In this document: positions 17,178 to 46,456 of the stretch, piece after piece | Numbering within the stretch: position 1 is the stretch's first letter | Layout of the letters: each line of letters begins with the position of its first letter | Source: a virus | Taxonomy: Duplodnaviria > Heunggongvirae > Uroviricota > Caudoviricetes | Direction: 5' to 3' (one strand) | Length of the DNA stretch: 46,456 nt | Virus record (IMG/VR): IMGVR_UViG_2563366990_000004 | Notes under the pieces: generated by a model | Seen by the model: the letters and a program-made list of their open reading frames with translations, nothing else | Told to the model about the DNA's origin: nothing | The model's database searches: none | Translations under genes and position numbers: made by a program

Positions 17178-17995
17178 AACTGGAAGATTTACCGAAATAC
17201 TACTCCCCAAAATCCCCCGGCCTGACTGATGCATCGGCCTCAACGTCGAAAGATGCGCTGAGTATCACTGATGTGATGGCCGCGCAGGGCATGACACAGA
17301 ATCGGGCTGAGATGGGGTTTTCTGCGTTCCTTGGGAAAATGGGCATTAGTATGAATGACAGAGAGCGGGCAACAGAATTGCTGACAGAATATGCACTCAG
17401 TCGGTGTGATCGCGTGGCGGCGTTAAGAAAACTCCCGGCAGAAATAAAACCGGCAGTGATGCGTATTATGGCTTCGTATGCGTTTGAAGATTATGCCCGT
17501 AGCGCGGCGAGCAAAAAACAGTGCCCCTGCTGTCACGGAAAAAAATTTATTGAAAGCGAGGTTTTTACAAACAAGATCCAGTATCCGGATGGTAAGCCGC
17601 CAGTGTGGGCAAAGTGCACAAAAGGCGTGTATCCGTCTTACTGGGAGGAATGGAAAAAAGTCAGGGAGGTGGTAAAAGTTGCCTGTCCGGAGTGTGGAGG
17701 GAAGGGAGAGGTATCCACTGCCTGTAAAGATTGTCGTGGGCGCGGTGTTGCCATTCATCGTGAAGAGTCGGAAAAACAGGGTGTGCCGGTTTTCAGAAAC
17801 TGTCAGCGTTGTGGTGGGCGTGGCTATGAAAGATTACCTTCAACGGAGGCATTTAATGCCATATGTAATGTAACCGATGCCATATCTCTCGATACATGGA
17901 AAAAAACAGTTAAACGTTTTTACGATACGCTGGTGGTGCAGTTTGATATTGAAGAAGCATGGGCAGAACAACAACTGAAAAAGGTGACCAGATAG
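17174..17995 (+). CDS. Q: Late-gene antitermination protein Q (QuuQ-like) with zinc-finger repeats
   Basis: 273 aa; N-terminus MKLEDLPKYYSPKSP…LSITDVMAAQGM and repeated CxxCxGxG motifs; immediately followed by a lambda-like pR'/qut. Confidence 0.7.
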   Translation: MKLEDLPKYYSPKSPGLTDASASTSKDALSITDVMAAQGMTQNRAEMGFSAFLGKMGISMNDRERATELLTEYALSRCDRVAALRKLPAEIKPAVMRIMASYAFEDYARSAASKKQCPCCHGKKFIESEVFTNKIQYPDGKPPVWAKCTKGVYPSYWEEWKKVREVVKVACPECGGKGEVSTACKDCRGRGVAIHREESEKQGVPVFRNCQRCGGRGYERLPSTEAFNAICNVTDAISLDTWKKTVKRFYDTLVVQFDIEEAWAEQQLKKVTR

Positions 17996-18000
17996 CTTTG

Positions 18001-18050
18001 TTGATTTTTCCCGAATCTGTGGTAAATTTGCCCTAACGATGGGTGTTTTA
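18001..18050 (+). promoter_or_regulatory. Late promoter pR' with qut-like element
   Basis: -35 TTGATT (18001-18006), 16-nt spacer, -10 TAAATT (18023-18028), then TGCCCTAACGATGGGTGTTTT, closely matching lambda pR' (TAAATTTGACTCAACGATGGGTTAATT). Confidence 0.65.
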
Positions 18051-18077
18051 TGCCTGACGTTAGAAGATTTTTTACAC

Positions 18078-18100
18078 CCCGCCGCCTGGCGGGTTTTTTT
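18078..18100 (+). terminator. tR'-like intrinsic terminator
   Basis: CCCGCC-GCCT-GGCGGG hairpin followed by TTTTTTT, ~50 nt downstream of the pR' -10. Confidence 0.65.
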
Positions 18101-18222
18101 ATGACTGAAATCACGCCAGTACAGTAAACGCGCTGGTGGCGGTGAATACCGGTCTTTCAGCTTGCTGGCTTTTTCGACAAGAGTTATTGGTGTGTCACGT
18201 TAACCGGAAAAGGGAAAAAGAC

Positions 18223-18420
18223 ATGCTGAAACAGCAGGATATGACCGAAACCGCCAGAGTGGTGTTTAATGAATTAAGCGTCACCGAACCGGCGACTGTC
18301 GGGGAGATTGCACAGAATACTTACCTTTCACGTGAACGCTGCCAGTTAATACTGACCCAGCTGGTTATGGCGGGGCTGGCAGACTATCAGTTCGGTTGTT
18401 ACAGACGCCTTCAGTCCTGA
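18223..18420 (+). CDS. Small winged-helix-like protein (65 aa)
   Basis: ATG 18223 after an A-rich RBS region; product MLKQQDMTETARVVFNELSVTEPATVGEIAQNTYLSRERCQLILTQLVMAGLADY…; hairpin plus T-run at 18407-18430 overlaps its stop. Confidence 0.45.
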   Translation: MLKQQDMTETARVVFNELSVTEPATVGEIAQNTYLSRERCQLILTQLVMAGLADYQFGCYRRLQS

Positions 18421-18430
18421 AGGCTTTTTT
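18407..18430 (+). terminator. Intrinsic terminator-like hairpin
   Basis: GCCTTC-AGTCCT-GAAGGC followed by TTTTTT. Confidence 0.45.
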
Positions 18431-18570
18431 ATTTGTGGTAAATGGGCGGCTGGTGGGTGTTAGGGGCACTCACCAGCCATCTGCTCATGCGTCCGGATCA
18501 CAAGCAAACCTCAGGCCCACTGCTTTGCGCAAAAGCAGAATGAGCCTATCAGAGACAGGCTTAATGATCC

Positions 18571-19623
18571 ATGCTTAGTACTGTAAAAATATCCAGTTGT
18601 GAGTTAATCAACGCCGACTGCCTGGAATTTATCCGGTCGTTACCCGAAAATTCTGTTGACCTGATAGTCACGGACCCGCCGTACTTTAAAGTGAAGCCTG
18701 AGGGCTGGGATAACCAGTGGAAGGGCGACGATGATTACCTGAAGTGGCTGGACCAGTGTCTTGCGCAGTTCTGGCGGGTGCTGAAACCTGCCGGAAGTCT
18801 TTACCTGTTCTGTGGCCATCGCCTGGCATCTGACATTGAAATCATGATGCGTGAACGCTTCAGTGTGCTGAACCATATTATCTGGGCGAAGCCGTCCGGA
18901 CGCTGGAACGGGTGCAACAAGGAAAGCCTGAGGGCGTATTTCCCCGCCACAGAGCGCATTCTGTTCGCGGAACATTATCAGGGGCCGTATCGTCCGAAAG
19001 ATGCCGGGTATGAGGCGAAGGGCAGGGCACTGAAACAGCATGTGATGGCCCCGCTGATTGCTTACTTTCGTGATGCACGTGCTGCCCTGGGGATAACGGC
19101 AAAACAGATTGCTGATGCCACAGGAAAGAAAAACATGGTGTCGCACTGGTTCAGTGCCAGTCAGTGGCAGCTACCGGACGAAAGCGATTATCTGAAATTA
19201 CAGGCGCTGTTTGCCCGGGTGGCAGAAGAGAAGCATCAGCGCGGAGAACTGGAAAAGCCACATCACCAACTGGTCAGCACATACAGTGAACTGAACCGAC
19301 AGTATACGGAACTGCAGAGTGAATATAAGCATCTGCGGCGGTATTTCGGTGTGACGGCGCAGGTGCCGTACACCGATGTGTGGACGCATAAACCGGTGCA
19401 GTACTATCCCGGGAAACATCCGTGCGAAAAACCGGCAGAAATGCTGCAGCAGATAATCAGCGCGAGCAGTCGTCCGGGTGACTTGGTTGCAGATTTCTTC
19501 ATGGGGTCGGGCTCAACCGTCAAAGCAGCGCTGGCACTGGGGCGTCGTGCAACTGGTGTTGAGCTGGAGAGTGAACGTTTTTTACAGACAGTGAAGGAGA
19601 TCCGGGACGATTTTTGCAGGTGA
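18571..19623 (+). CDS. Orphan DNA methyltransferase (beta-class amino-MTase: N-terminal DPPY motif, C-terminal FxGxG SAM motif)
   Basis: 350 aa; DLIVTDPPYF near the N-terminus and DLVADFFMGSGSTVKAA near the C-terminus; no restriction endonuclease gene adjacent. Confidence 0.85.
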   Translation: MLSTVKISSCELINADCLEFIRSLPENSVDLIVTDPPYFKVKPEGWDNQWKGDDDYLKWLDQCLAQFWRVLKPAGSLYLFCGHRLASDIEIMMRERFSVLNHIIWAKPSGRWNGCNKESLRAYFPATERILFAEHYQGPYRPKDAGYEAKGRALKQHVMAPLIAYFRDARAALGITAKQIADATGKKNMVSHWFSASQWQLPDESDYLKLQALFARVAEEKHQRGELEKPHHQLVSTYSELNRQYTELQSEYKHLRRYFGVTAQVPYTDVWTHKPVQYYPGKHPCEKPAEMLQQIISASSRPGDLVADFFMGSGSTVKAALALGRRATGVELESERFLQTVKEIRDDFCR

Positions 19624-19711
19624 CAGAGGTTGAGGAAAGGTTGAAGGGAGGATCATTTGTTATTGTTGTATATAATTATTCTACCCCTTTCCTGAGTCAG
19701 GTAAATATATA

Positions 19712-20434
19712 ATGGCAGTTGTCTGTTCTGTAATTCTGGTTTGTTCCCCGATCAATATTTTTATTGAGAAAGACAAACTTTCACTTGTGCCGGGCATGGT
19801 CATTCTGGTCACCAGAAACATCAGGGAGCTTTTTCGCACTTACACAGACCGGGTTAAGGTTGCTGATATAAATCACGATATAGTCAGTCAATATCTGGAA
19901 GGTGGGCGAAGGCGGATGAGCTCCCCACAGGCATGTTTTCCGCATTATCTCACTTCTGGCATTCATCAGCCTGTACTGGCAGAGGCGTTAATTACTAATC
20001 ATGGATTTCCCAGTGCTCCTTCTGGTGATTTGTCCACGATGACAGGGCTTTCATGTCTTTCTCTGTTTGCCAACGATGAGAGCCTGTCATCATTTTTGTC
20101 AAGGTGTTTAAGCAATACAAGCGATAAAGTCAGGGCAATAATTCAGAGCGATATATCCGTAAACTGGAAGCTTGGTGTTATTGCGTTACAACTGCATATG
20201 AGCGAAAGCTTGTTAAAGAAAAAGCTTAAAGATGAAGGAAACAGCTTCAGCCGCCTGTTGCTGGAAGAGAGGATGCGGGGGGCAGTAAATATGTTATGCT
20301 TTCAATATGGACGGGGAGCGATAGTGGCAGAAAAATGCGGTTATTCAAGCCTGTCTTACTTTATATCAGTATTCCACAGGTATTATGGAGTACCTCCTGA
20401 CAAATATGTGTCTCTGCATATGGTTGACTTTTAA
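19712..20434 (+). CDS. AraC/XylS-family transcriptional regulator (cargo gene)
   Basis: 240 aa; C-terminal double-HTH region (…FSRLLLEERMRGAVNML…IVAEKCGYSSLSYFISVFHRYYGVPP); visibly AT-rich relative to flanking phage genes. Confidence 0.75.
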   Translation: MAVVCSVILVCSPINIFIEKDKLSLVPGMVILVTRNIRELFRTYTDRVKVADINHDIVSQYLEGGRRRMSSPQACFPHYLTSGIHQPVLAEALITNHGFPSAPSGDLSTMTGLSCLSLFANDESLSSFLSRCLSNTSDKVRAIIQSDISVNWKLGVIALQLHMSESLLKKKLKDEGNSFSRLLLEERMRGAVNMLCFQYGRGAIVAEKCGYSSLSYFISVFHRYYGVPPDKYVSLHMVDF

Positions 20435-20556
20435 TTTCATCCTGCTGGCGGATGGAGTGCTGGTGGTCGGCATTGTGGTGGTGCTTTTTCCTTTGGTTAA
20501 AAAGGACATGCCAGGTAGTTAGCGGGTATCAGTCATGCCCAGAAAATTTTAAATGT

Positions 20557-20795
20557 CTCACAATTCAGACGGTTGACAGTTGTCTGTTTTGCGGGGAGTT
20601 TGTTAAAAGAAACTGGCATGGTGAATCCCCCTGAGCGGAGGGGCGACTGGTGCATCAGGTGTTATCTTTGATACCCAGGAAAGTGAACGCGCGGGTTCGG
20701 TGGCACCGGGCTGAACTCACCGGGAGGCACCCGGCACTATGCGCATGATGTACAGATACGCGGCTTCAGCCCCTCTCCGGAGGGGCTTTTCTGTG
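20557..20795 (+). repeat. Repeat unit A (~240 bp) ending in an intrinsic terminator
   Basis: Starts CTCACAATTCAGACGGTTGACAGTTGTCTG; internal hairpin CCCCCTGAGCGGAGGGG; shared block GCGGGTTCGGTGGCACCGGGCTGAACTCACCGGGAGGCACCCGGCA; ends CAGCCCCTCTCCGGAGGGGCTTTTCT. Confidence 0.6.
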
Positions 20796-21042
20796 CCTTA
20801 TGCATCACAGTTTCTGGAACCCTGAGTACTACAGTATCAGTCAGGGTGCTATATTTGCAGATGTGATGAAAGCCTGCCGGCAGGCAGGGCGTATCGGAAA
20901 TGACCCAGTAAGAGAAAACGTTGACTCAGATACCGGTGCTGAGTTACCGGGAAACCGGCATCACATGACCGCTATCCTTCATGGCTCTCTCAGGAGAGCC
21001 TTTTTACTGGAGAAAACCGCTTCCCCGTAAAATGCCGTGTTG

Positions 21043-21282
21043 CTCACAATTCAGTCAGTTGAAGGTTGTCTGCCCGACTGAGAATTTGTTAAAAAATTTC
21101 TGCATGATGAATCCCCCTGTGCGGAGGGGCGGCTGGTGTACGGAATGGTCTCTGATGATCGTTAGCGAGAATGACGCGGGTTCGGTGGCACCGGGCTGAA
21201 CTCACCGGGAGGCACCCGGCATCATGTAATGAACGGTACATAGCGCTACTCTTCAGCCCCTCTCCGGAGGGGCTTTCTTATG
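21043..21282 (+). repeat. Repeat unit B (~240 bp), diverged copy of unit A, ending in an intrinsic terminator
   Basis: CTCACAATTCAGTCAGTTGAAGGTTGTCTG…CCCCCTGTGCGGAGGGG…GCGGGTTCGGTGGCACCGGGCTGAACTCACCGGGAGGCACCCGGCA…CAGCCCCTCTCCGGAGGGGCTTTCTT; a further hairpin with minus-strand terminator polarity at 21290-21315. Confidence 0.6.
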
Positions 21283-21511
21283 GATAAAAAAAGCCCGCAT
21301 GGTGAGATGCGGGCAGCAAGGAATAAACAACAAAACGTGAAGTAATCAATTTTTCAGCTGGCGAATAATACCCGACAGTAATCACTCTGCGCAACTGCGC
21401 GGCCTTTTTCGTATTGCGGGCTGTAGTCTTCCTCCTGCCATTGTCCTGTAACTTCCGGACTTCAGCCCGCCCCTCATCTGACTCACAACATTATCCCGAC
21501 CGGGAGGATTC

Positions 21512-23479
21512 ATGGCATTTAAACACTATGACGTGGTCAGGGCGGCGTCGCCGTCAGACCTTGCGGAGCGACTGACTCAAAAACTGAAGGAGGGGTGGCA
21601 GCCATTTGGCAGTCCTGTCGCCATCACGCCTTATACCCTGATGCAGGCCATTGCGGCGGAAGGTGATGTCACCACACCTGTGGTGGTGAAGCCGTCGGAT
21701 GGAGAAGGCACAGTTATCAGCGCCACCAGCGACCCGGAGTATTACTTTGTTGTGGTTCTGGCAGGGCAGTCAAACGGCATGTCGTATGGTGAAGGCCTTC
21801 CGCTGCCGGAGACATATGACCGTCCGGACCCGCGTATTAAGCAGCTGGCGCGCCGAAGTACGGTGACACCGGGAGGTGCCGCCTGTAAGTATAACGACAT
21901 TATTCCGGCGGACCATTGTCTGCATGATGTGCAGGACATGAGCCGTCTTAACCATCCGAAAGCGGACCTGTCAAAGGGGCAGTACGGAACCGTGGGGCAG
22001 GGGCTGCATATCGCCAAAAAACTGCTGCCGTTTATACCGGCGAATGCGGGCATTCTGCTGGTTCCGTGCTGCCGTGGTGCTTCGGCATTCACAACGGGTG
22101 CAGACGGCACATACAGCGAATCAGCCGGTGCATCGGAAAATTCACTGCGCTGGGGTGTGGGTAAGCCGCTGTATCAGGATTTGGTGAGCCGGACTAAAGC
22201 CGCACTGGCGAAGAACCCGAAAAACCGTCTGCTTGCGGTGGTGTGGATGCAGGGAGAAGGTGATGTGGCAGTGGGGACGCATGCGCAGCATTCAGGGCTG
22301 TTTAGTGCGATGGTGAATCAGTTCAGAACGGACCTTGCCGGTCAGGCATCACAGAGCACAGGAGGCAGCGCATCAGCGGTACCGTGGGTTTGCGGGGACA
22401 CAACGTATTTCTGGAAGCAGCGTCATGCGGAAGGGTATGCATCAGTATACGGAGGGTATAAGGGTAAGGAGTCGCAGAACATTTTCTTTGTACCGTTAAT
22501 GACGGATGAGAATGGTGCGAATGTGCAGACCAATGACCCGGCAGAAGACCCGGACCTGGAAGCCGTCGGTTATTACGGTTCAAAGTGGCGTAATGACCAG
22601 AAGACCTGGACATCTGTGGACAGGGCCAGCCATTTCAGTTCATGGGCTCGCCGTGGGATTATTTCCGACCGTCTGGCAACGGCGATTCTGGTGCATGCCG
22701 GGAGAACCGCTGAATTCATTACCGGAAAACAGCCTGATACGGTGAAGCCCACCGGACCTTCCGGTGAAGGCCCGGAGAGAGAGCCGGAAGCCCCGGTCAG
22801 TAACCGAACCCTGATGAGTCTGCTGGCGTCCGGTGAAGACCTGGCATCACAGGGCTGGCGCTATTATCACAAACCGGCGAGCGGAGACAGTGTTGATAAA
22901 AACATCGCTGAGGCTGTGGTCAGTGATGAGGGTGCCACCGGTGGTAAGGCCCTGCAACTGAACAAACCGGAAAGCCACATCTGGTTTCTGGAGCATGATG
23001 CCGCCGGGCAGGGGGCAGAGTTGCTGAAGAAAGGCGGACGTGTGAGCGTGCGGTTTAAGGTGCCGGGCGCACTGGTGCCGAATCAGTTTGCCCTGGGTAT
23101 TTACTGGCAGTTGTCGTCCCTGCCGGAGGGAGTGACGCTGTCAGAGGAAGGCAACGACATGCTGATGTCCTTCTTCCTGCAGACGGATGCGACGAACCTG
23201 AACGCGATGTACCACAAGAAGCAGAATGCGAAGCTGGATACGTTCGGGGTCTTTGATAACGGATGGCACACACTGGCTTTTGAGTTTGCCGGAAACAACA
23301 GCATTCAGGTGACGCCGGTACTGGATGAGAAACGGGGTACACCGTTCACACTGGTGAAATCTCCGGCATCAGGGGCGGCGGACAAACTGCAACTGACAGG
23401 CATATCAAAGGCGGCGACATATACGCTGCTGATTGACAGTGTGAAGGTGGAAGTGAACAACGCGGATGCCGCGGCATGA
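21512..23479 (+). CDS. nanS-p: NanS-p-type sialate O-acetylesterase (N-terminal DUF1737, SASA/SGNH esterase core)
   Basis: 655 aa; N-terminus MAFKHYDVVRAASPSDLAERLTQKLKEGWQPFG (DUF1737-like) and esterase motif VVLAGQSNGMSYG; sits between Q and the lysis genes as nanS-p does in Stx and related lambdoid phages. Confidence 0.75.
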   Translation: MAFKHYDVVRAASPSDLAERLTQKLKEGWQPFGSPVAITPYTLMQAIAAEGDVTTPVVVKPSDGEGTVISATSDPEYYFVVVLAGQSNGMSYGEGLPLPETYDRPDPRIKQLARRSTVTPGGAACKYNDIIPADHCLHDVQDMSRLNHPKADLSKGQYGTVGQGLHIAKKLLPFIPANAGILLVPCCRGASAFTTGADGTYSESAGASENSLRWGVGKPLYQDLVSRTKAALAKNPKNRLLAVVWMQGEGDVAVGTHAQHSGLFSAMVNQFRTDLAGQASQSTGGSASAVPWVCGDTTYFWKQRHAEGYASVYGGYKGKESQNIFFVPLMTDENGANVQTNDPAEDPDLEAVGYYGSKWRNDQKTWTSVDRASHFSSWARRGIISDRLATAILVHAGRTAEFITGKQPDTVKPTGPSGEGPEREPEAPVSNRTLMSLLASGEDLASQGWRYYHKPASGDSVDKNIAEAVVSDEGATGGKALQLNKPESHIWFLEHDAAGQGAELLKKGGRVSVRFKVPGALVPNQFALGIYWQLSSLPEGVTLSEEGNDMLMSFFLQTDATNLNAMYHKKQNAKLDTFGVFDNGWHTLAFEFAGNNSIQVTPVLDEKRGTPFTLVKSPASGAADKLQLTGISKAATYTLLIDSVKVEVNNADAAA

Positions 23480-44233: not shown

Positions 44234-46456
44234 AGTGGGTAAAGGGGGCGGCAAGGGGCACACACCGCGTGAGGCGAAGGACAATCTCAAATCCACGCAG
44301 ATGATGAGCGTGATTGATGCCATTGGTGAGGGACCGGTGGAAGGTCCGGTGAAGGGACTGCAGAGTATTCTGGTGAACAAAACCCCGCTGACGGACACGG
44401 ACGGTAATCCCGTGATACACGGTGTGACCGCCGTCTGGCGTGCCGGGGAGCAGGAGCAGACACCGCCGGAAGGCTTTGAGTCCTCCGGGGCAGAAACCGC
44501 ACTGGGCGTGGAGGTGACGAAGGCAAAGCCGGTGACGCGCACCATCACGTCAGCGAACATTGACCGTCTGCGGGTCACCTTCGGGGTGCAGTCACTGGTG
44601 GAGACCACCTCAAAGGGTGACCGTAATCCCTCTTCTGTCCGCCTGCTGATTCAGCTTGAGCGTAACGGGCACTGGGTGACGGAGAAGGATGTCACCATTA
44701 ACGGCAAGACCACCTCGCAGTACCTGACGTCGGTGATTCTGAATAATCTCCCTGAGCGCCCCTTTAACATCCGGATGGTCAGGGAGACGGCGGACAGCAC
44801 CACGGACCAGCTGCAGAACAGAACGCTGTGGTCGTCATACACCGAAATCATCGATGTGAAACAGTGCTACCCGAACACGGCTATTGTGGGGCTGCAGGTG
44901 GATGCGGAGCAGTTTGGTGGCCAGCAGCTGACGGTGAACTACCATATCCGTGGTCGCATCATTCAGGTGCCGTCAAACTATGACCCGGAAAAACGCACCT
45001 ACAGCGGTATCTGGGACGGCAGTCTGAAACCGGCATACAGCAATAACCCGGCCTGGTGCCTGTGGGACATGCTGACCCACCCGCGCTACGGCATGGGAAA
45101 ACGCCTGGGGGCCGCGGATGTGGACAAGTGGGCACTGTATGCCATCGGGCAGTACTGTGACCAGACGGTCCCGGATGGTTTCGGGGGCACAGAGCCGCGG
45201 ATGACTTTTAATGCGTACCTGTCACAGCAGCGTAAGGTCTGGGATGTCCTGGGGGATTTCTGCTCGGCGATGCGCTGTATGCCGGTATGGAACGGCCAGA
45301 CGCTGACGTTCGTTCAGGACCGCCCGTCGGATGTGGTGTGGCCCTACACCAACAGCGATGTGGTGGTGGATGATAACGGCGTGGGGTTCCGCTACAGCTT
45401 CAGTGCCCTGAAGGACCGGCACACGGCGGTGGAGGTGAATTACACCGACCCGCAGAACGGCTGGCAGACTTCCACGGAACTGGTGGAAGACCCGGACGCC
45501 ATCCTGCGCTACGGGCGCAACCTGCTGAAGATGGATGCGTTCGGCTGTACCAGCCGCGGTCAGGCCCACCGTGCCGGACTGTGGGTGATAAAGACCGAAC
45601 TGCTGGAAACGCAGACGGTGGATTTCACGCTCGGGTCACAGGGGCTGCGTCACACACCCGGTGACATCATTGAAATCTGTGATAACGACTATGCCGGGAC
45701 CCTGACCGGCGGACGCATCCTGTCCATCGATGCCGCCAGCCGTACCCTGACGCTGGACCGTGAGGTGATACTGCTGGAAGCAGGGACATCGATGGTGAAC
45801 CTGATTAACGGCAGCGGTAAGCCGGTGCGCGTGGACATCACTGCACACCCCGCCCCTGACCGGATACAGGTCAGCGCCCTGCCGGATGGCGTGGAGACAT
45901 ACGGTGTGTGGGGACTCTCCCTGCCGTCACTGCGTCGTCGCCTGTTCCGCTGTGTTTCCATCCGGGAAAACACGGACGGTACCTTTGCCATCACGGCGGT
46001 GCAGCATGTGCCGGAAAAAGAAGCCATTGTGGATAACGGGGCCCGCTTTGAGCCGATGTCCGGCTCACTGAACAGCGTCATCCCGCCGGCGGTGCAGCAC
46101 CTTACGGTGGAGGTGAGTGCCTCAGACGGCCAGTATCTGGCACTGGCGAAATGGGACACGCCGCGGGTGGTGAAGGGCGTGCGCTTCAGTCTGCGCCTGA
46201 CCAGCGGAAACGGTGAAAACAGCCGCCTGGTGACCACCGCCATCACTGCCGACACGGAGCACCGTTTCAGTGGCCTGCCTCTGGGGGAATACACCCTGAC
46301 GGTCAGGGCGATAAACAGCTACGGCCAGCAGGGCGAACCTGCCACCACCACGTTCCGGATTAACGCACCGGCAGCACCGGCCAGCATTGAACTGACGCCG
46401 GGGTATTATCAGATAACGGCGGTCCCGCATCTTACGGTGTATGACCCGACGGTACA
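44234..46456 (+). CDS. J: Tail tip/host-specificity protein J (3' end beyond the window)
   Basis: GTG 44234 preceded by GGAGAGGGGG; own translation [39 protein letters not shown]… is collinear with lambda J ([39 protein letters not shown]…) and stays open to the window end. Absent from the track because no stop lies in the window. Confidence 0.9.

What the first reader, a model, noticed from the sequence alone, without database searches (positions are those of the whole stretch)
18223..20434. Regulatory cargo just downstream of Q/pR': small wHTH protein, orphan DNA methyltransferase, AraC-family regulator
Three non-structural genes follow the late promoter and its terminator. The methyltransferase has no partner endonuclease, so it is a candidate anti-restriction or epigenetic factor. 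The AraC-family gene is strongly AT-rich and has no obvious phage role; prophage AraC-type regulators can rewire host virulence or stress genes.
Basis: partly seen in the sequence, partly recalled or inferred. Interest (0 to 1): 0.55.

Follow-up and report, generated by a model that had tools for sequence, protein, structure and literature searches.

The report
Prophage late-operon cargo: methylase plus Psr-type regulator
Just after the late promoter of an E. coli lambda-like prophage sit a small DNA-binding protein, a close copy of the known non-specific adenine methylase M.EcoGII, and a divergent relative of the known PsrA/PsrB acid-resistance and virulence regulators; all three are real, but they belong to kinds already described.

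Summary
All three genes exist at the stated coordinates, intact, directly behind a lambda-type pR' promoter and its terminator.

- **Methyltransferase (18571-19623).** It is 94% identical to M.EcoGII, the non-specific N6-adenine methylase of E. coli prophages. That enzyme is silent in lysogens and toxic when expressed. A lysogen-versus-cured methylome would therefore probably show nothing, and that result would not refute activity.
- **AraC gene (19712-20434).** It is a divergent member of the PsrA/PsrB clade: 63% identical overall and 77% in the DNA-binding domain. It occupies the slot that psrA holds in Sakai prophage Sp4 and that tRNAs plus stx2 hold in Stx2 phages. dN/dS against psrA is about 0.2. 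GC is 43% against 52% for the window, so it is moderately rather than strongly AT-rich.
- **65-aa protein (18223-18420).** It is a confidently predicted winged helix of unknown function.

One addition goes beyond the finding. The small protein and a conserved, hairpin-rich 150-nt leader precede M.EcoGII-type genes across many Enterobacterales genera, behind three different Q families. This suggests a dedicated gate on a toxic enzyme.

Verdict: an ordinary, largely known cargo set. The AraC protein is a new member of a known kind.

The parts
17174..17995 (+). Q antiterminator, lambda-Q type with an inserted DnaJ-like zinc-finger segment
   Evidence: PF03589 E=5e-52 and PF00684. Lambda Q structures 7ubm/4mo1 match residues 1-113 and 183-273.
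18001..18044 (+). pR' late promoter (TTGATT 18001-06, TAAATT 18023-28) with the AACGATGGGT element (18035-44) that it shares with lambda pR'
   Evidence: Alignment with lambda 44480-44820 keeps GGTAAATTTG..AACGATGGGT. The generic promoter scan did not call it because it scores only 8 of 12 consensus positions.
18078..18100 (+). tR'-like intrinsic terminator
   Evidence: Six G-C pairs, a loop of 4, then TTTTTTT. Present in the minimum-energy fold, z=-3.2.
18223..18420 (+). 65-aa winged-helix protein of unknown function, the conserved upstream partner of the methylase
   Evidence: AlphaFold2 pLDDT 90.5 with three helices and a beta-hairpin wing. Foldseek returns generic winged-helix domains, TM up to 0.81. 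TrmB hit 18.1 bits is below the 25.6 cutoff. PHROG 331, unknown function. Adjacent to the methylase in 62/75 viral loci and about 62 of 86 genome loci with upstream sequence.
18407..18434 (+). Terminator-like hairpin overlapping the stop codon of the winged-helix gene (P0)
   Evidence: Seven pairs followed by TTTTTTATTT. A hairpin is kept at this place in other genera with different stem sequences.
18421..18570 (+). Conserved non-coding leader of the methylase. P1 hairpin 18448-18478 (its 5' arm contains a Chi octamer). P2 18480-85 with 18503-08. P3 18520-26 with 18532-38. GGATCA 18495-18500 can pair with TGATCC 18565-18570 next to the ATG.
   Evidence: 79% mean identity over 48 sequences from more than 15 genera, with 1-nt indels. 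Fold z=-4.4. 94% of cells paired against 29-42% in slid controls, with 6 pairs showing double changes. P1 is kept with many different stems in Xenorhabdus and Photorhabdus. No Rfam match.
18571..19623 (+). Orphan beta-class N6-adenine DNA methyltransferase of the M.EcoGI/M.EcoGII family
   Evidence: PF01555 E=1.7e-43. 325/347 residues identical to M.EcoGII (sequence taken from a supplement of PMC11551740). DPPY is N-terminal and FxGxG C-terminal.
19660..20434 (+). Psr-clade AraC/XylS regulator cassette. A conserved TATAAT lies at 19671-19676 and the CDS at 19712-20434.
   Evidence: 63% identical to full-length PsrA, 77% in the DNA-binding domain. Upstream homology with psrA and the Stx2k-phage gene begins about 50 nt before the ATG. 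dN/dS 0.19-0.24. AlphaFold2 pLDDT 87 with an Rns/CsvR/ToxT-like fold.
20435..20522 (+). 3' remnant of a DUF3927 gene, marking the right junction of the AraC cassette
   Evidence: 17/25 residues identical to the C-terminus of the DUF3927 protein of strain SCU-125. The DNA alignment resumes here.
20587..21285 (+). Two full copies and one degenerate copy of the prophage sRNA STnc100 (20587-20796, 20837-21012 weak, 21073-21285)
   Evidence: Rfam RF02076 at 141.8, 35.7 and 164.6 bits against a gathering score of 47. The same arrangement occurs in strain SCU-125.
21512..23479 (+). 655-aa esterase with DUF1737, SASA and DUF6645 domains, which closes the cargo slot
   Evidence: Pfam hits. The same gene follows stx2 or the tRNAs in the related phages examined.

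Best explanation
This is the variable cargo slot at the head of the late operon of an E. coli lambdoid prophage of the Stx-phage type. It holds two independent modules.

**Module 1: winged-helix gene, leader and methylase.** The methylase is an M.EcoGII-type non-specific N6-adenine methyltransferase. Its gene lies behind tR' and behind at least one more terminator-like hairpin. It should therefore be transcribed only when Q makes RNA polymerase terminator-resistant after induction. The enzyme would then methylate adenines in replicating phage DNA in any sequence context, which protects progeny DNA against many restriction systems in the next host. Keeping the gene off in the lysogen avoids the toxicity of genome-wide adenine methylation. 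The winged-helix protein and the conserved structured leader travel with the enzyme and most likely tighten or time its expression.

**Module 2: the AraC cassette.** This is a separately acquired Psr-clade AraC/XylS regulator. It replaces the tRNA, TerB or stx cargo found at this place in related phages. By analogy with PsrA, PsrB and PatE, it most likely activates host acid-resistance genes (gadE, hdeAB, yhiF). In a strain carrying the LEE island it would thereby lower type III secretion.

**Shown here:** gene integrity, family assignments, synteny, cassette junctions, the promoter and terminators, purifying selection, and conservation of the pair and of the leader.

**Inferred:** enzymatic non-specificity, Q-dependence of expression, the anti-restriction benefit, the targets of the AraC protein, and any role for the winged-helix protein or the leader.
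For: **Methylase.**
- 94% identical to M.EcoGII over 347 residues. The stretch given as the target-recognition domain (160-237) has only three substitutions.
- M.EcoGII is non-specific, silent in its lysogen and harmful when expressed constitutively (PMC5778455). The ST131 homologue is silent by RT-PCR (PMC4659465).
- The gene order winged-helix gene then methylase sits before ileZ-argN-argO and stx2AB in phage Stx2a_1447.

**Position.**
- Lambda-type pR' and tR'.
- A second terminator-like hairpin at 18407-18434.

**Pairing of the winged-helix gene with the methylase.**
- The winged-helix gene directly precedes the methylase in 62 of 75 IMG/VR loci.
- It also does so in about 62 of 86 genome loci with upstream sequence (8 extra context loci plus the species representatives), out to Xenorhabdus, Photorhabdus and Providencia, at near-constant spacing.
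- The pair lies behind Q proteins of three different Pfam families.

**Leader.** Conservation, fold z=-4.4 and covariation.

**AraC protein.**
- PsrA 63%, PatE 37-39%, GadW 34%, YdeO 29%, AppY 28%, GadX 27%.
- psrA (ECs_1087) sits in the same slot after the same winged-helix gene in Sakai Sp4.
- Functions of PsrA, PsrB and PatE are taken from review PMC10877973.
- dN/dS about 0.2.
Against: - No expression or activity data exist for this locus.
- The M.EcoGII sequence I compared against was machine-read from a supplement and may contain reading errors.
- The AraC protein is much further from PsrA (63%) than PsrA is from the PsrB-like cluster (89%), and its N-terminal domain is only 53% identical. 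Its signal input, and possibly its targets, may therefore differ.
- No convincing sigma-70 promoter was found for the AraC gene. There is only a conserved TATAAT with a poor -35, so it may be expressed only as part of the late transcript.
- The winged-helix gene also occurs without the methylase (Sakai Sp4; 13 of 75 viral loci).
- The methylase with its leader occurs without a detectable winged-helix gene in about 16 species, 13 of which are in the leader alignment. A strict functional dependence between the two is therefore not supported.
Confidence: 0.75

Rival explanations
1. The methylase is a sequence-specific enzyme that is active in the lysogen. It would act as an epigenetic regulator of host genes.
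For: It is an orphan enzyme. Its best NCBIfam hit is to the YhdJ model.
Against: The YhdJ score is 111.7 bits against a cutoff of 292. The protein is 94% identical to the non-specific M.EcoGII. Close homologues are not expressed in lysogens. The gene lies behind two or three terminator-like hairpins.
Confidence: 0.06
2. The AraC-type protein serves the phage itself. It might regulate the adjacent STnc100 sRNAs, the esterase, the lysis genes or the methylase, rather than the host acid-resistance and type III secretion network.
For: It lies in the late operon with no terminator between the methylase stop codon and its own start. It has no strong promoter of its own. Its N-terminal domain is only 53% identical to that of PsrA.
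Against: The closest characterised relatives (PsrA, PsrB, PatE) all act on host gadE and hdeA. The DNA-binding domain is 77-78% identical to that of PsrA. Related phages carry unrelated cargo in this slot (tRNAs, TerB, stx) and still have the same downstream genes, so no phage function depends on the AraC gene.
Confidence: 0.15
3. The winged-helix protein is a dedicated controller or partner of the methylase. It could be a transcription factor acting on the leader, or a protein that restrains the enzyme, and not an unrelated neighbour.
For: Adjacency at near-constant spacing persists from Escherichia to Xenorhabdus even where the winged-helix protein is only 38-50% identical. The pair lies behind three unrelated Q families. 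The spacer between the two genes is conserved.
Against: Each gene occurs without the other. The leader stays with the methylase when the winged-helix gene is absent. There is no similarity to restriction-modification controller proteins. The fold match is generic.
Confidence: 0.35
4. The genes are decaying, functionless remnants of a defective prophage.
For: Many E. coli prophages are cryptic. No complete RefSeq E. coli genome carries this AraC allele.
Against: All three ORFs are full length relative to their homologues. The catalytic motifs are intact. dN/dS is about 0.2. The window carries a full set of integrase, repressor, replication, Q, lysis, terminase, head and tail genes. Identical context is seen in all 24 contigs read.
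Confidence: 0.04

Closest known systems
M.EcoGII / M.EcoGI (E. coli O104:H4 C227-11) and M.EcoMV (ST131 EC958): non-specific beta-class N6-adenine methyltransferases of prophages
   Same: 94% identity over 347 residues, about the same length (350 vs 349 aa), and the same order DPPY, central recognition domain, FxGxG. It is an orphan enzyme on a lambdoid prophage.
   Different: About 20 substitutions, mostly in the 240-275 linker and the last 25 residues. Activity was not measured here. The upstream winged-helix gene and the leader are not mentioned in the three M.EcoGII papers I read.
PsrA (ECs_1087 / Z1789) and PsrB (Z2104): prophage-encoded secretion regulators of EHEC O157:H7
   Same: It has the closest sequence relatives (60-65%). 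The two-domain AraC/XylS architecture is the same. The DNA-binding domain is 77-78% identical. The slot is the same: after Q and the same winged-helix gene, and before the STnc100 sRNA and the esterase.
   Different: Only 53% identity in the N-terminal domain. It is 240 rather than 237 aa. Here it follows a methylase and has displaced the tRNA genes. This allele is absent from all 5,426 complete RefSeq E. coli genomes searched. Association with effector loci or pch genes could not be checked, because the window ends within the tail genes.
PatE (Z0321 / ECs_0287), GadW, GadX, YdeO, AppY: acid-resistance AraC regulators of E. coli
   Same: The same subfamily. The NCBIfam YdeO model aligns over the whole length. 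The GadX DNA-binding domain 3mkl matches at E=4e-42.
   Different: Identity is 27-39%. All NCBIfam scores are far below the equivalog cutoffs (YdeO 112 vs 348; GadX 89 vs 500).
Rns / CsvR / ToxT: virulence AraC regulators with a fatty-acid-binding N-terminal domain
   Same: These are the best full-length structural matches to the predicted model (Foldseek E about 1e-10; profile E about 1e-26).
   Different: 16-23% identity and TM only about 0.5. Conservation of the ligand pocket was not examined.
The stx / tRNA cargo slot of Stx-converting phages (for example Stx2a_1447, phiSTEC1575-Stx2k)
   Same: The gene order is the same: Q, winged-helix gene, methylase and/or AraC gene, cargo, esterase, lysis genes.
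   Different: This window has no tRNA genes and no stx.

Membership tests
M.EcoGI/M.EcoGII non-specific adenine methyltransferases | Beta-class motif order: N-terminal DPPY, central recognition domain, C-terminal FxGxG | tested here: met
   VTDPPY at residues 33-38 and FFMGSGS at 309-315. PF01555 covers residues 29-339.
M.EcoGI/M.EcoGII non-specific adenine methyltransferases | Close full-length sequence identity to the characterised enzyme, including the recognition domain | tested here: met
   325/347 residues identical, with three substitutions in residues 160-237. The reference sequence was machine-read from a supplement.
M.EcoGI/M.EcoGII non-specific adenine methyltransferases | Orphan enzyme on a prophage, with no cognate endonuclease | tested here: met
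   The neighbours are the winged-helix ORF and the AraC gene. There are no endonuclease domains and no PADLOC hit for either neighbour.
M.EcoGI/M.EcoGII non-specific adenine methyltransferases | Methylates adenine in any sequence context | not testable with these tools
   Requires expression followed by SMRT, nanopore or LC-MS analysis.
M.EcoGI/M.EcoGII non-specific adenine methyltransferases | Not expressed in the lysogen | not testable with these tools
   The position behind tR' and a second hairpin is consistent with this. Silence has been reported for homologues only.
Psr (PsrA/PsrB) prophage AraC-like regulators | C-terminal AraC-type double helix-turn-helix domain | tested here: met
   PF00165 and PF12833 over residues 158-232. 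GadX DNA-binding domain match at E=4e-42.
Psr (PsrA/PsrB) prophage AraC-like regulators | Closer to PsrA/PsrB than to any other characterised AraC regulator | tested here: met
   63% to PsrA against 37% to PatE and 27-34% to GadW, GadX, YdeO and AppY. It is nonetheless far more distant than the PsrA cluster is from the PsrB-like cluster (89%).
Psr (PsrA/PsrB) prophage AraC-like regulators | Encoded in a lambdoid prophage between Q and the lysis genes | tested here: met
   The same slot and the same upstream winged-helix gene as psrA in Sakai Sp4.
Psr (PsrA/PsrB) prophage AraC-like regulators | Linked to effector loci and Pch regulators on the same prophage | not testable with these tools
   The window ends within the tail genes. 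The region where effectors usually lie is not included.
Psr (PsrA/PsrB) prophage AraC-like regulators | Activates gadE, yhiF and hdeA and thereby represses type III secretion | not testable with these tools
   Requires an experiment.
YdeO / GadX equivalogs (NCBIfam) | Score above the curated equivalog cutoff | tested here: not met
   YdeO 111.7 bits against 348. GadX 89.1 bits against 500.
TrmB family (PF01978), the name NCBI gives the 65-aa protein | Pfam gathering score reached | tested here: not met
   18.1 bits against 25.6. No NCBIfam hit.
Winged helix-turn-helix fold | Three helices followed by a beta-hairpin wing | tested here: met
   AlphaFold2 pLDDT 90.5 with H4-16, H26-33, H37-49, E53-56 and E59-62. 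Foldseek TM 0.7-0.8 to IclR and MarR winged-helix domains.
Known RNA families (Rfam 15), for the methylase leader | Match at or near a family's gathering score | tested here: not met
   Only noise at or below 16.6 bits in 18390-18600. Nothing was found in the 5-kb scan apart from STnc100.

The most novel reading that the evidence does not exclude
The 65-aa winged-helix protein and the conserved 150-nt multi-hairpin leader may form an undescribed control module that gates a toxic, non-specific adenine methylase.

The module accompanies M.EcoGII-type genes across Enterobacterales. The leader has no Rfam family. Its P1 helix is maintained by compensatory changes, and the methylase start codon has no obvious Shine-Dalgarno sequence and is flanked by a conserved pairing partner.

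Separately, the AraC protein may be a distinct Psr paralogue. Its divergent Rns/ToxT-like N-terminal domain could respond to a different signal.
Probability: 0.3. Interest if true: 0.55.

Novelty: new member of a known kind. Interest (0 to 1): 0.3.

Why it matters
**For annotation.** The methylase should be labelled an M.EcoGII-type non-specific adenine methylase rather than 'site-specific DNA-methyltransferase'. The AraC gene should be labelled a Psr-family regulator rather than 'helix-turn-helix domain-containing protein'.

**For experiment design.** Methylome comparison of lysogens will miss this enzyme. It has to be assayed after induction or after cloning.

**For biology.** The locus shows again that the position occupied by stx in Stx phages is a general exchange point for host-modulating cargo. 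If the winged-helix protein and the leader do control the methylase, that would explain how prophages safely carry an enzyme that is toxic to the host, and it might be useful for those who use M.EcoGII as a tool. The divergent Psr allele widens the set of prophage regulators that may tune acid resistance outside O157.

Tried and rejected
- **Rfam on the leader.** Searches of 17000-22000 and of the leader alone gave no family for the leader or for the pR'-tR' transcript.
- **RNAalifold on the leader.** It gave a weak consensus of -18 kcal/mol with a covariation term of -0.75. My own helix set does better but was derived from the same sequences, so it is biased.
- **Start-codon pairing.** The proposed pairing that hides the start region (18495-18500 with 18565-18570, plus CATG with the ATG) is 97.5% conserved. 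It has no double changes and is indistinguishable from column shuffles, so it remains unsupported by covariation.
- **Chi as the reason for leader conservation.** Rejected. Providencia and Xenorhabdus keep the P1 helix but lose the Chi octamer.
- **The leader as a coding region.** Rejected because of the 1-nt indels.
- **Promoters.** The generic promoter scan found no + strand promoter for the AraC gene or the methylase.
- **tRNAs.** No tRNA genes are present, although they are present in this slot in the related prophages examined.
- **Defence-system profiles.** PADLOC gave nothing for the winged-helix or AraC proteins.
- **lambda orf-64.** It occupies the same position in lambda but is unrelated to the winged-helix protein.
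- **Literature.** The primary PsrB paper (PMC4288888) is not held and the Tree et al. 2011 paper was not found. Psr functions therefore rest on a review.
- **Complete genomes.** No complete RefSeq E. coli genome carries the AraC allele, so annotated context had to come from draft contigs.
Full report
**Observation**

- Pfam assigns the second to DNA methylase PF01555 (E=1.7e-43).
- Pfam assigns the third to the AraC helix-turn-helix families PF00165 and PF12833.
- The first has only a sub-threshold TrmB hit (18.1 bits against a cutoff of 25.6).

All three exact protein sequences are present in public E. coli assemblies.

**Setting**

The window is a complete-looking lambdoid prophage. It carries an integrase, an HTH_3 (Cro/CI-type) repressor-like gene, replication genes, RusA, Q, lysis genes, terminase, and head and tail genes.

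The gene at 17174-17995 is a Q antiterminator (PF03589, E=5e-52). It is of the lambda-Q type with an inserted zinc-finger segment (7ubm E=1e-41).

The 83 nt after Q align with lambda pR'. They keep TTGATT (18001-06), the TAAATT -10 hexamer (18023-28) and the AACGATGGGT element (18035-44). From my own knowledge, that element is the sigma-dependent pause signal of lambda pR'.

A six-G-C-pair hairpin followed by T7 at 18078-18100 is the tR' equivalent.

**The methyltransferase**

The protein has the beta-class motif order: VTDPPY near the N-terminus and FFMGSGS near the C-terminus. It is 325/347 residues (94%) identical to the M.EcoGII sequence printed in a supplement of PMC11551740. That text was machine-read, so a few of the differences may be reading errors.

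What is known about the family:
- M.EcoGII is the non-specific adenine methylase of an E. coli O104:H4 prophage.
- It is not expressed in the lysogen and harms cells when expressed constitutively.
- It belongs to a very large prophage family that includes M.EcoGI (PMC5778455).
- The ST131 enzyme M.EcoMV, 99% identical to M.EcoGI, gave no motif and was silent by RT-PCR (PMC4659465).

NCBIfam's YhdJ and CcrM models score far below their cutoffs. The neighbours are not endonucleases.

The enzyme is therefore an orphan, and anti-restriction is the best-supported role.

**The small protein**

AlphaFold2 on a 21-sequence alignment gives pLDDT 90.5 and a three-helix plus beta-hairpin topology. Foldseek finds only generic winged-helix domains such as those of IclR and MarR. 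PHROGs lists the family as unknown. 'wHTH' is therefore right and 'TrmB family' is not established.

The informative result is genomic:
- The gene directly precedes an M.EcoGII-type gene in 62 of 75 IMG/VR loci with enough downstream sequence.
- In 86 genome loci with upstream sequence (species representatives carrying the methylase plus the 8 Salmonella and Klebsiella context loci), a homologue lies upstream at near-constant spacing in about 62. These include Xenorhabdus, Photorhabdus, Providencia and Rosenbergiella, where it is only 38-54% identical.
- The pair sits behind Q proteins of three different Pfam families.
- Each gene can also occur alone.

**The leader**

The 150-nt spacer between the two genes is as conserved as coding sequence across more than 15 genera, with a mean identity of 79%. 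It carries 1-nt indels, so it is not coding. The window sequence folds with z=-4.4.

I proposed a set of helices: P1 18448-18478, P2 18480-85 with 18503-08, and P3 18520-26 with 18532-38.
- 94.4% of cells are paired, against 29-42% when the partners are slid.
- Six pairs show double changes.
- One P2 pair shows C-G, A-U and U-A.

I derived this structure from the same sequences, so these figures are biased upward.

In Xenorhabdus and Photorhabdus, 27 distinct sequences keep a hairpin at the P1 position with quite different stems, often followed by a U-run. The Chi octamer in the 5' arm of P1 is lost in Providencia and Xenorhabdus while the helix persists, so the structure rather than Chi is what is conserved.

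The leader stays with the methylase when the winged-helix gene is absent. It matches no Rfam family.

I read it as extra insulation of a dangerous gene, acting as a terminator and perhaps as a translational control. This is inference.

**The AraC gene**

Closest database relatives outside its own small cluster are 57-65% identical E. coli proteins of about 237 aa. One of those clusters is PsrA of O157:H7 Sakai (ECs_1087, named in PMC13502914).

| Comparison | Full length | DNA-binding domain | N-terminal domain |
|---|---|---|---|
| PsrA | 63% | 77% | 53% |
| PatE (inferred to be ECs_0287) | 37-39% | 49% | 31% |
| GadW | 34% | 47% | 26% |
| YdeO | 29% | 42% | 20% |
| AppY | 28% | 43% | 18% |
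| GadX | 27% | 45% | 13% |

- NCBIfam equivalog cutoffs are not met for any of these.
- dN/dS against psrA is 0.24, and 0.17 in the DNA-binding domain, so the gene has evolved under purifying selection.
- The predicted structure (pLDDT 87) resembles Rns, CsvR and ToxT over its full length, and GadX in the DNA-binding domain.
- GC is 43.3% against 51.8% for the window.

PsrA, PsrB and PatE activate gadE and hdeA and lower LEE expression (review PMC10877973). That is the most likely function here, by homology only.

**Slot and junctions**

The same position holds different cargo in different phages:
- In Sakai Sp4 the order is Q, a CAAX-protease gene, the winged-helix gene, psrA, ileZ-argN-argO, an STnc100-like sequence, then the esterase.
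- In phage Stx2a_1447 it is the winged-helix gene, the methylase, the three tRNAs, stx2AB, then the esterase.
- In phiSTEC1575-Stx2k a 63%-identical AraC gene precedes the tRNAs and stx2k.
- In strain SCU-125 the slot holds tRNAs, TerB and DUF3927.

In the window, homology with the psrA cassette begins about 50 nt upstream of the ATG and includes a shared TATAAT at 19671-76. The -35 region is poor. The right junction lies inside a DUF3927 remnant at 20435-20522.

The AraC gene is thus a separate cassette that has replaced the tRNA, TerB or stx cargo. The arrangement is identical in all 24 contigs read that carry the exact protein. It is absent from 5,426 complete RefSeq E. coli genomes and from the 80 closest IMG/VR loci.

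**Verdict**

- The methylase is an already known enzyme family.
- The AraC protein is a new, divergent member of the known Psr kind.
- The winged-helix protein is real but uncharacterised.

The only element that may be new is the conserved association of winged-helix gene, leader and methylase. I could not find it mentioned in the M.EcoGII papers I read.

Noticed in passing
window 18421-18570: The spacer between the winged-helix gene and the methylase is a conserved, probably structured, non-coding leader found upstream of M.EcoGII-type genes in more than 15 Enterobacterales genera. It has no Rfam family. A conserved GATC lies just before the ATG, and there is no obvious Shine-Dalgarno sequence.
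   Followed up: partly
window 20587-20796, 20837-21012, 21073-21285: Two full copies and one degenerate copy of the prophage sRNA STnc100 (RF02076; 141.8, 35.7 and 164.6 bits) lie between the AraC gene and the esterase gene. Each ends in a terminator-like hairpin. The same duplication occurs in E. coli SCU-125, whereas Sakai Sp4 has one copy.
   Followed up: partly
whole window; for example 17929, 18132, 18449, 20459: The Chi octamer GCTGGTGG occurs 15 times against 2.0 expected from shuffles. Twelve are on the + strand, and four of those fall within 2.6 kb around the finding.
   Followed up: partly
window 20435-20522: A 3' remnant of a DUF3927 gene directly follows the AraC stop codon. It marks the recombination junction of the cassette.
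   Followed up: yes
window about 14086-15325: A hok/gef-type toxin ORF and a ParE/ParD toxin-antitoxin pair lie in the nin region upstream of the DUF968 gene. These are Pfam calls on identical contigs, mapped to the window by offset. This is also the most AT-rich part of the window (38.6% GC).
   Followed up: no
window 17174-17995: The Q protein is lambda-Q-like at both ends but carries an insertion of about 70 residues with DnaJ-type CXXCXGXG zinc-finger repeats.
   Followed up: no
window 1-46456: No tRNA genes occur anywhere in the window, although ileZ-argN-argO occupy this slot in the related prophages examined (SCU-125, Sakai Sp4, Stx2a_1447).
   Followed up: yes
window 21512-23479: A 655-aa esterase with DUF1737, SASA and DUF6645 domains lies downstream. 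It has the architecture of the gene that follows stx in Stx phages. A minus-strand terminator-like hairpin at 21293-21314 lies just upstream of it.
   Followed up: no
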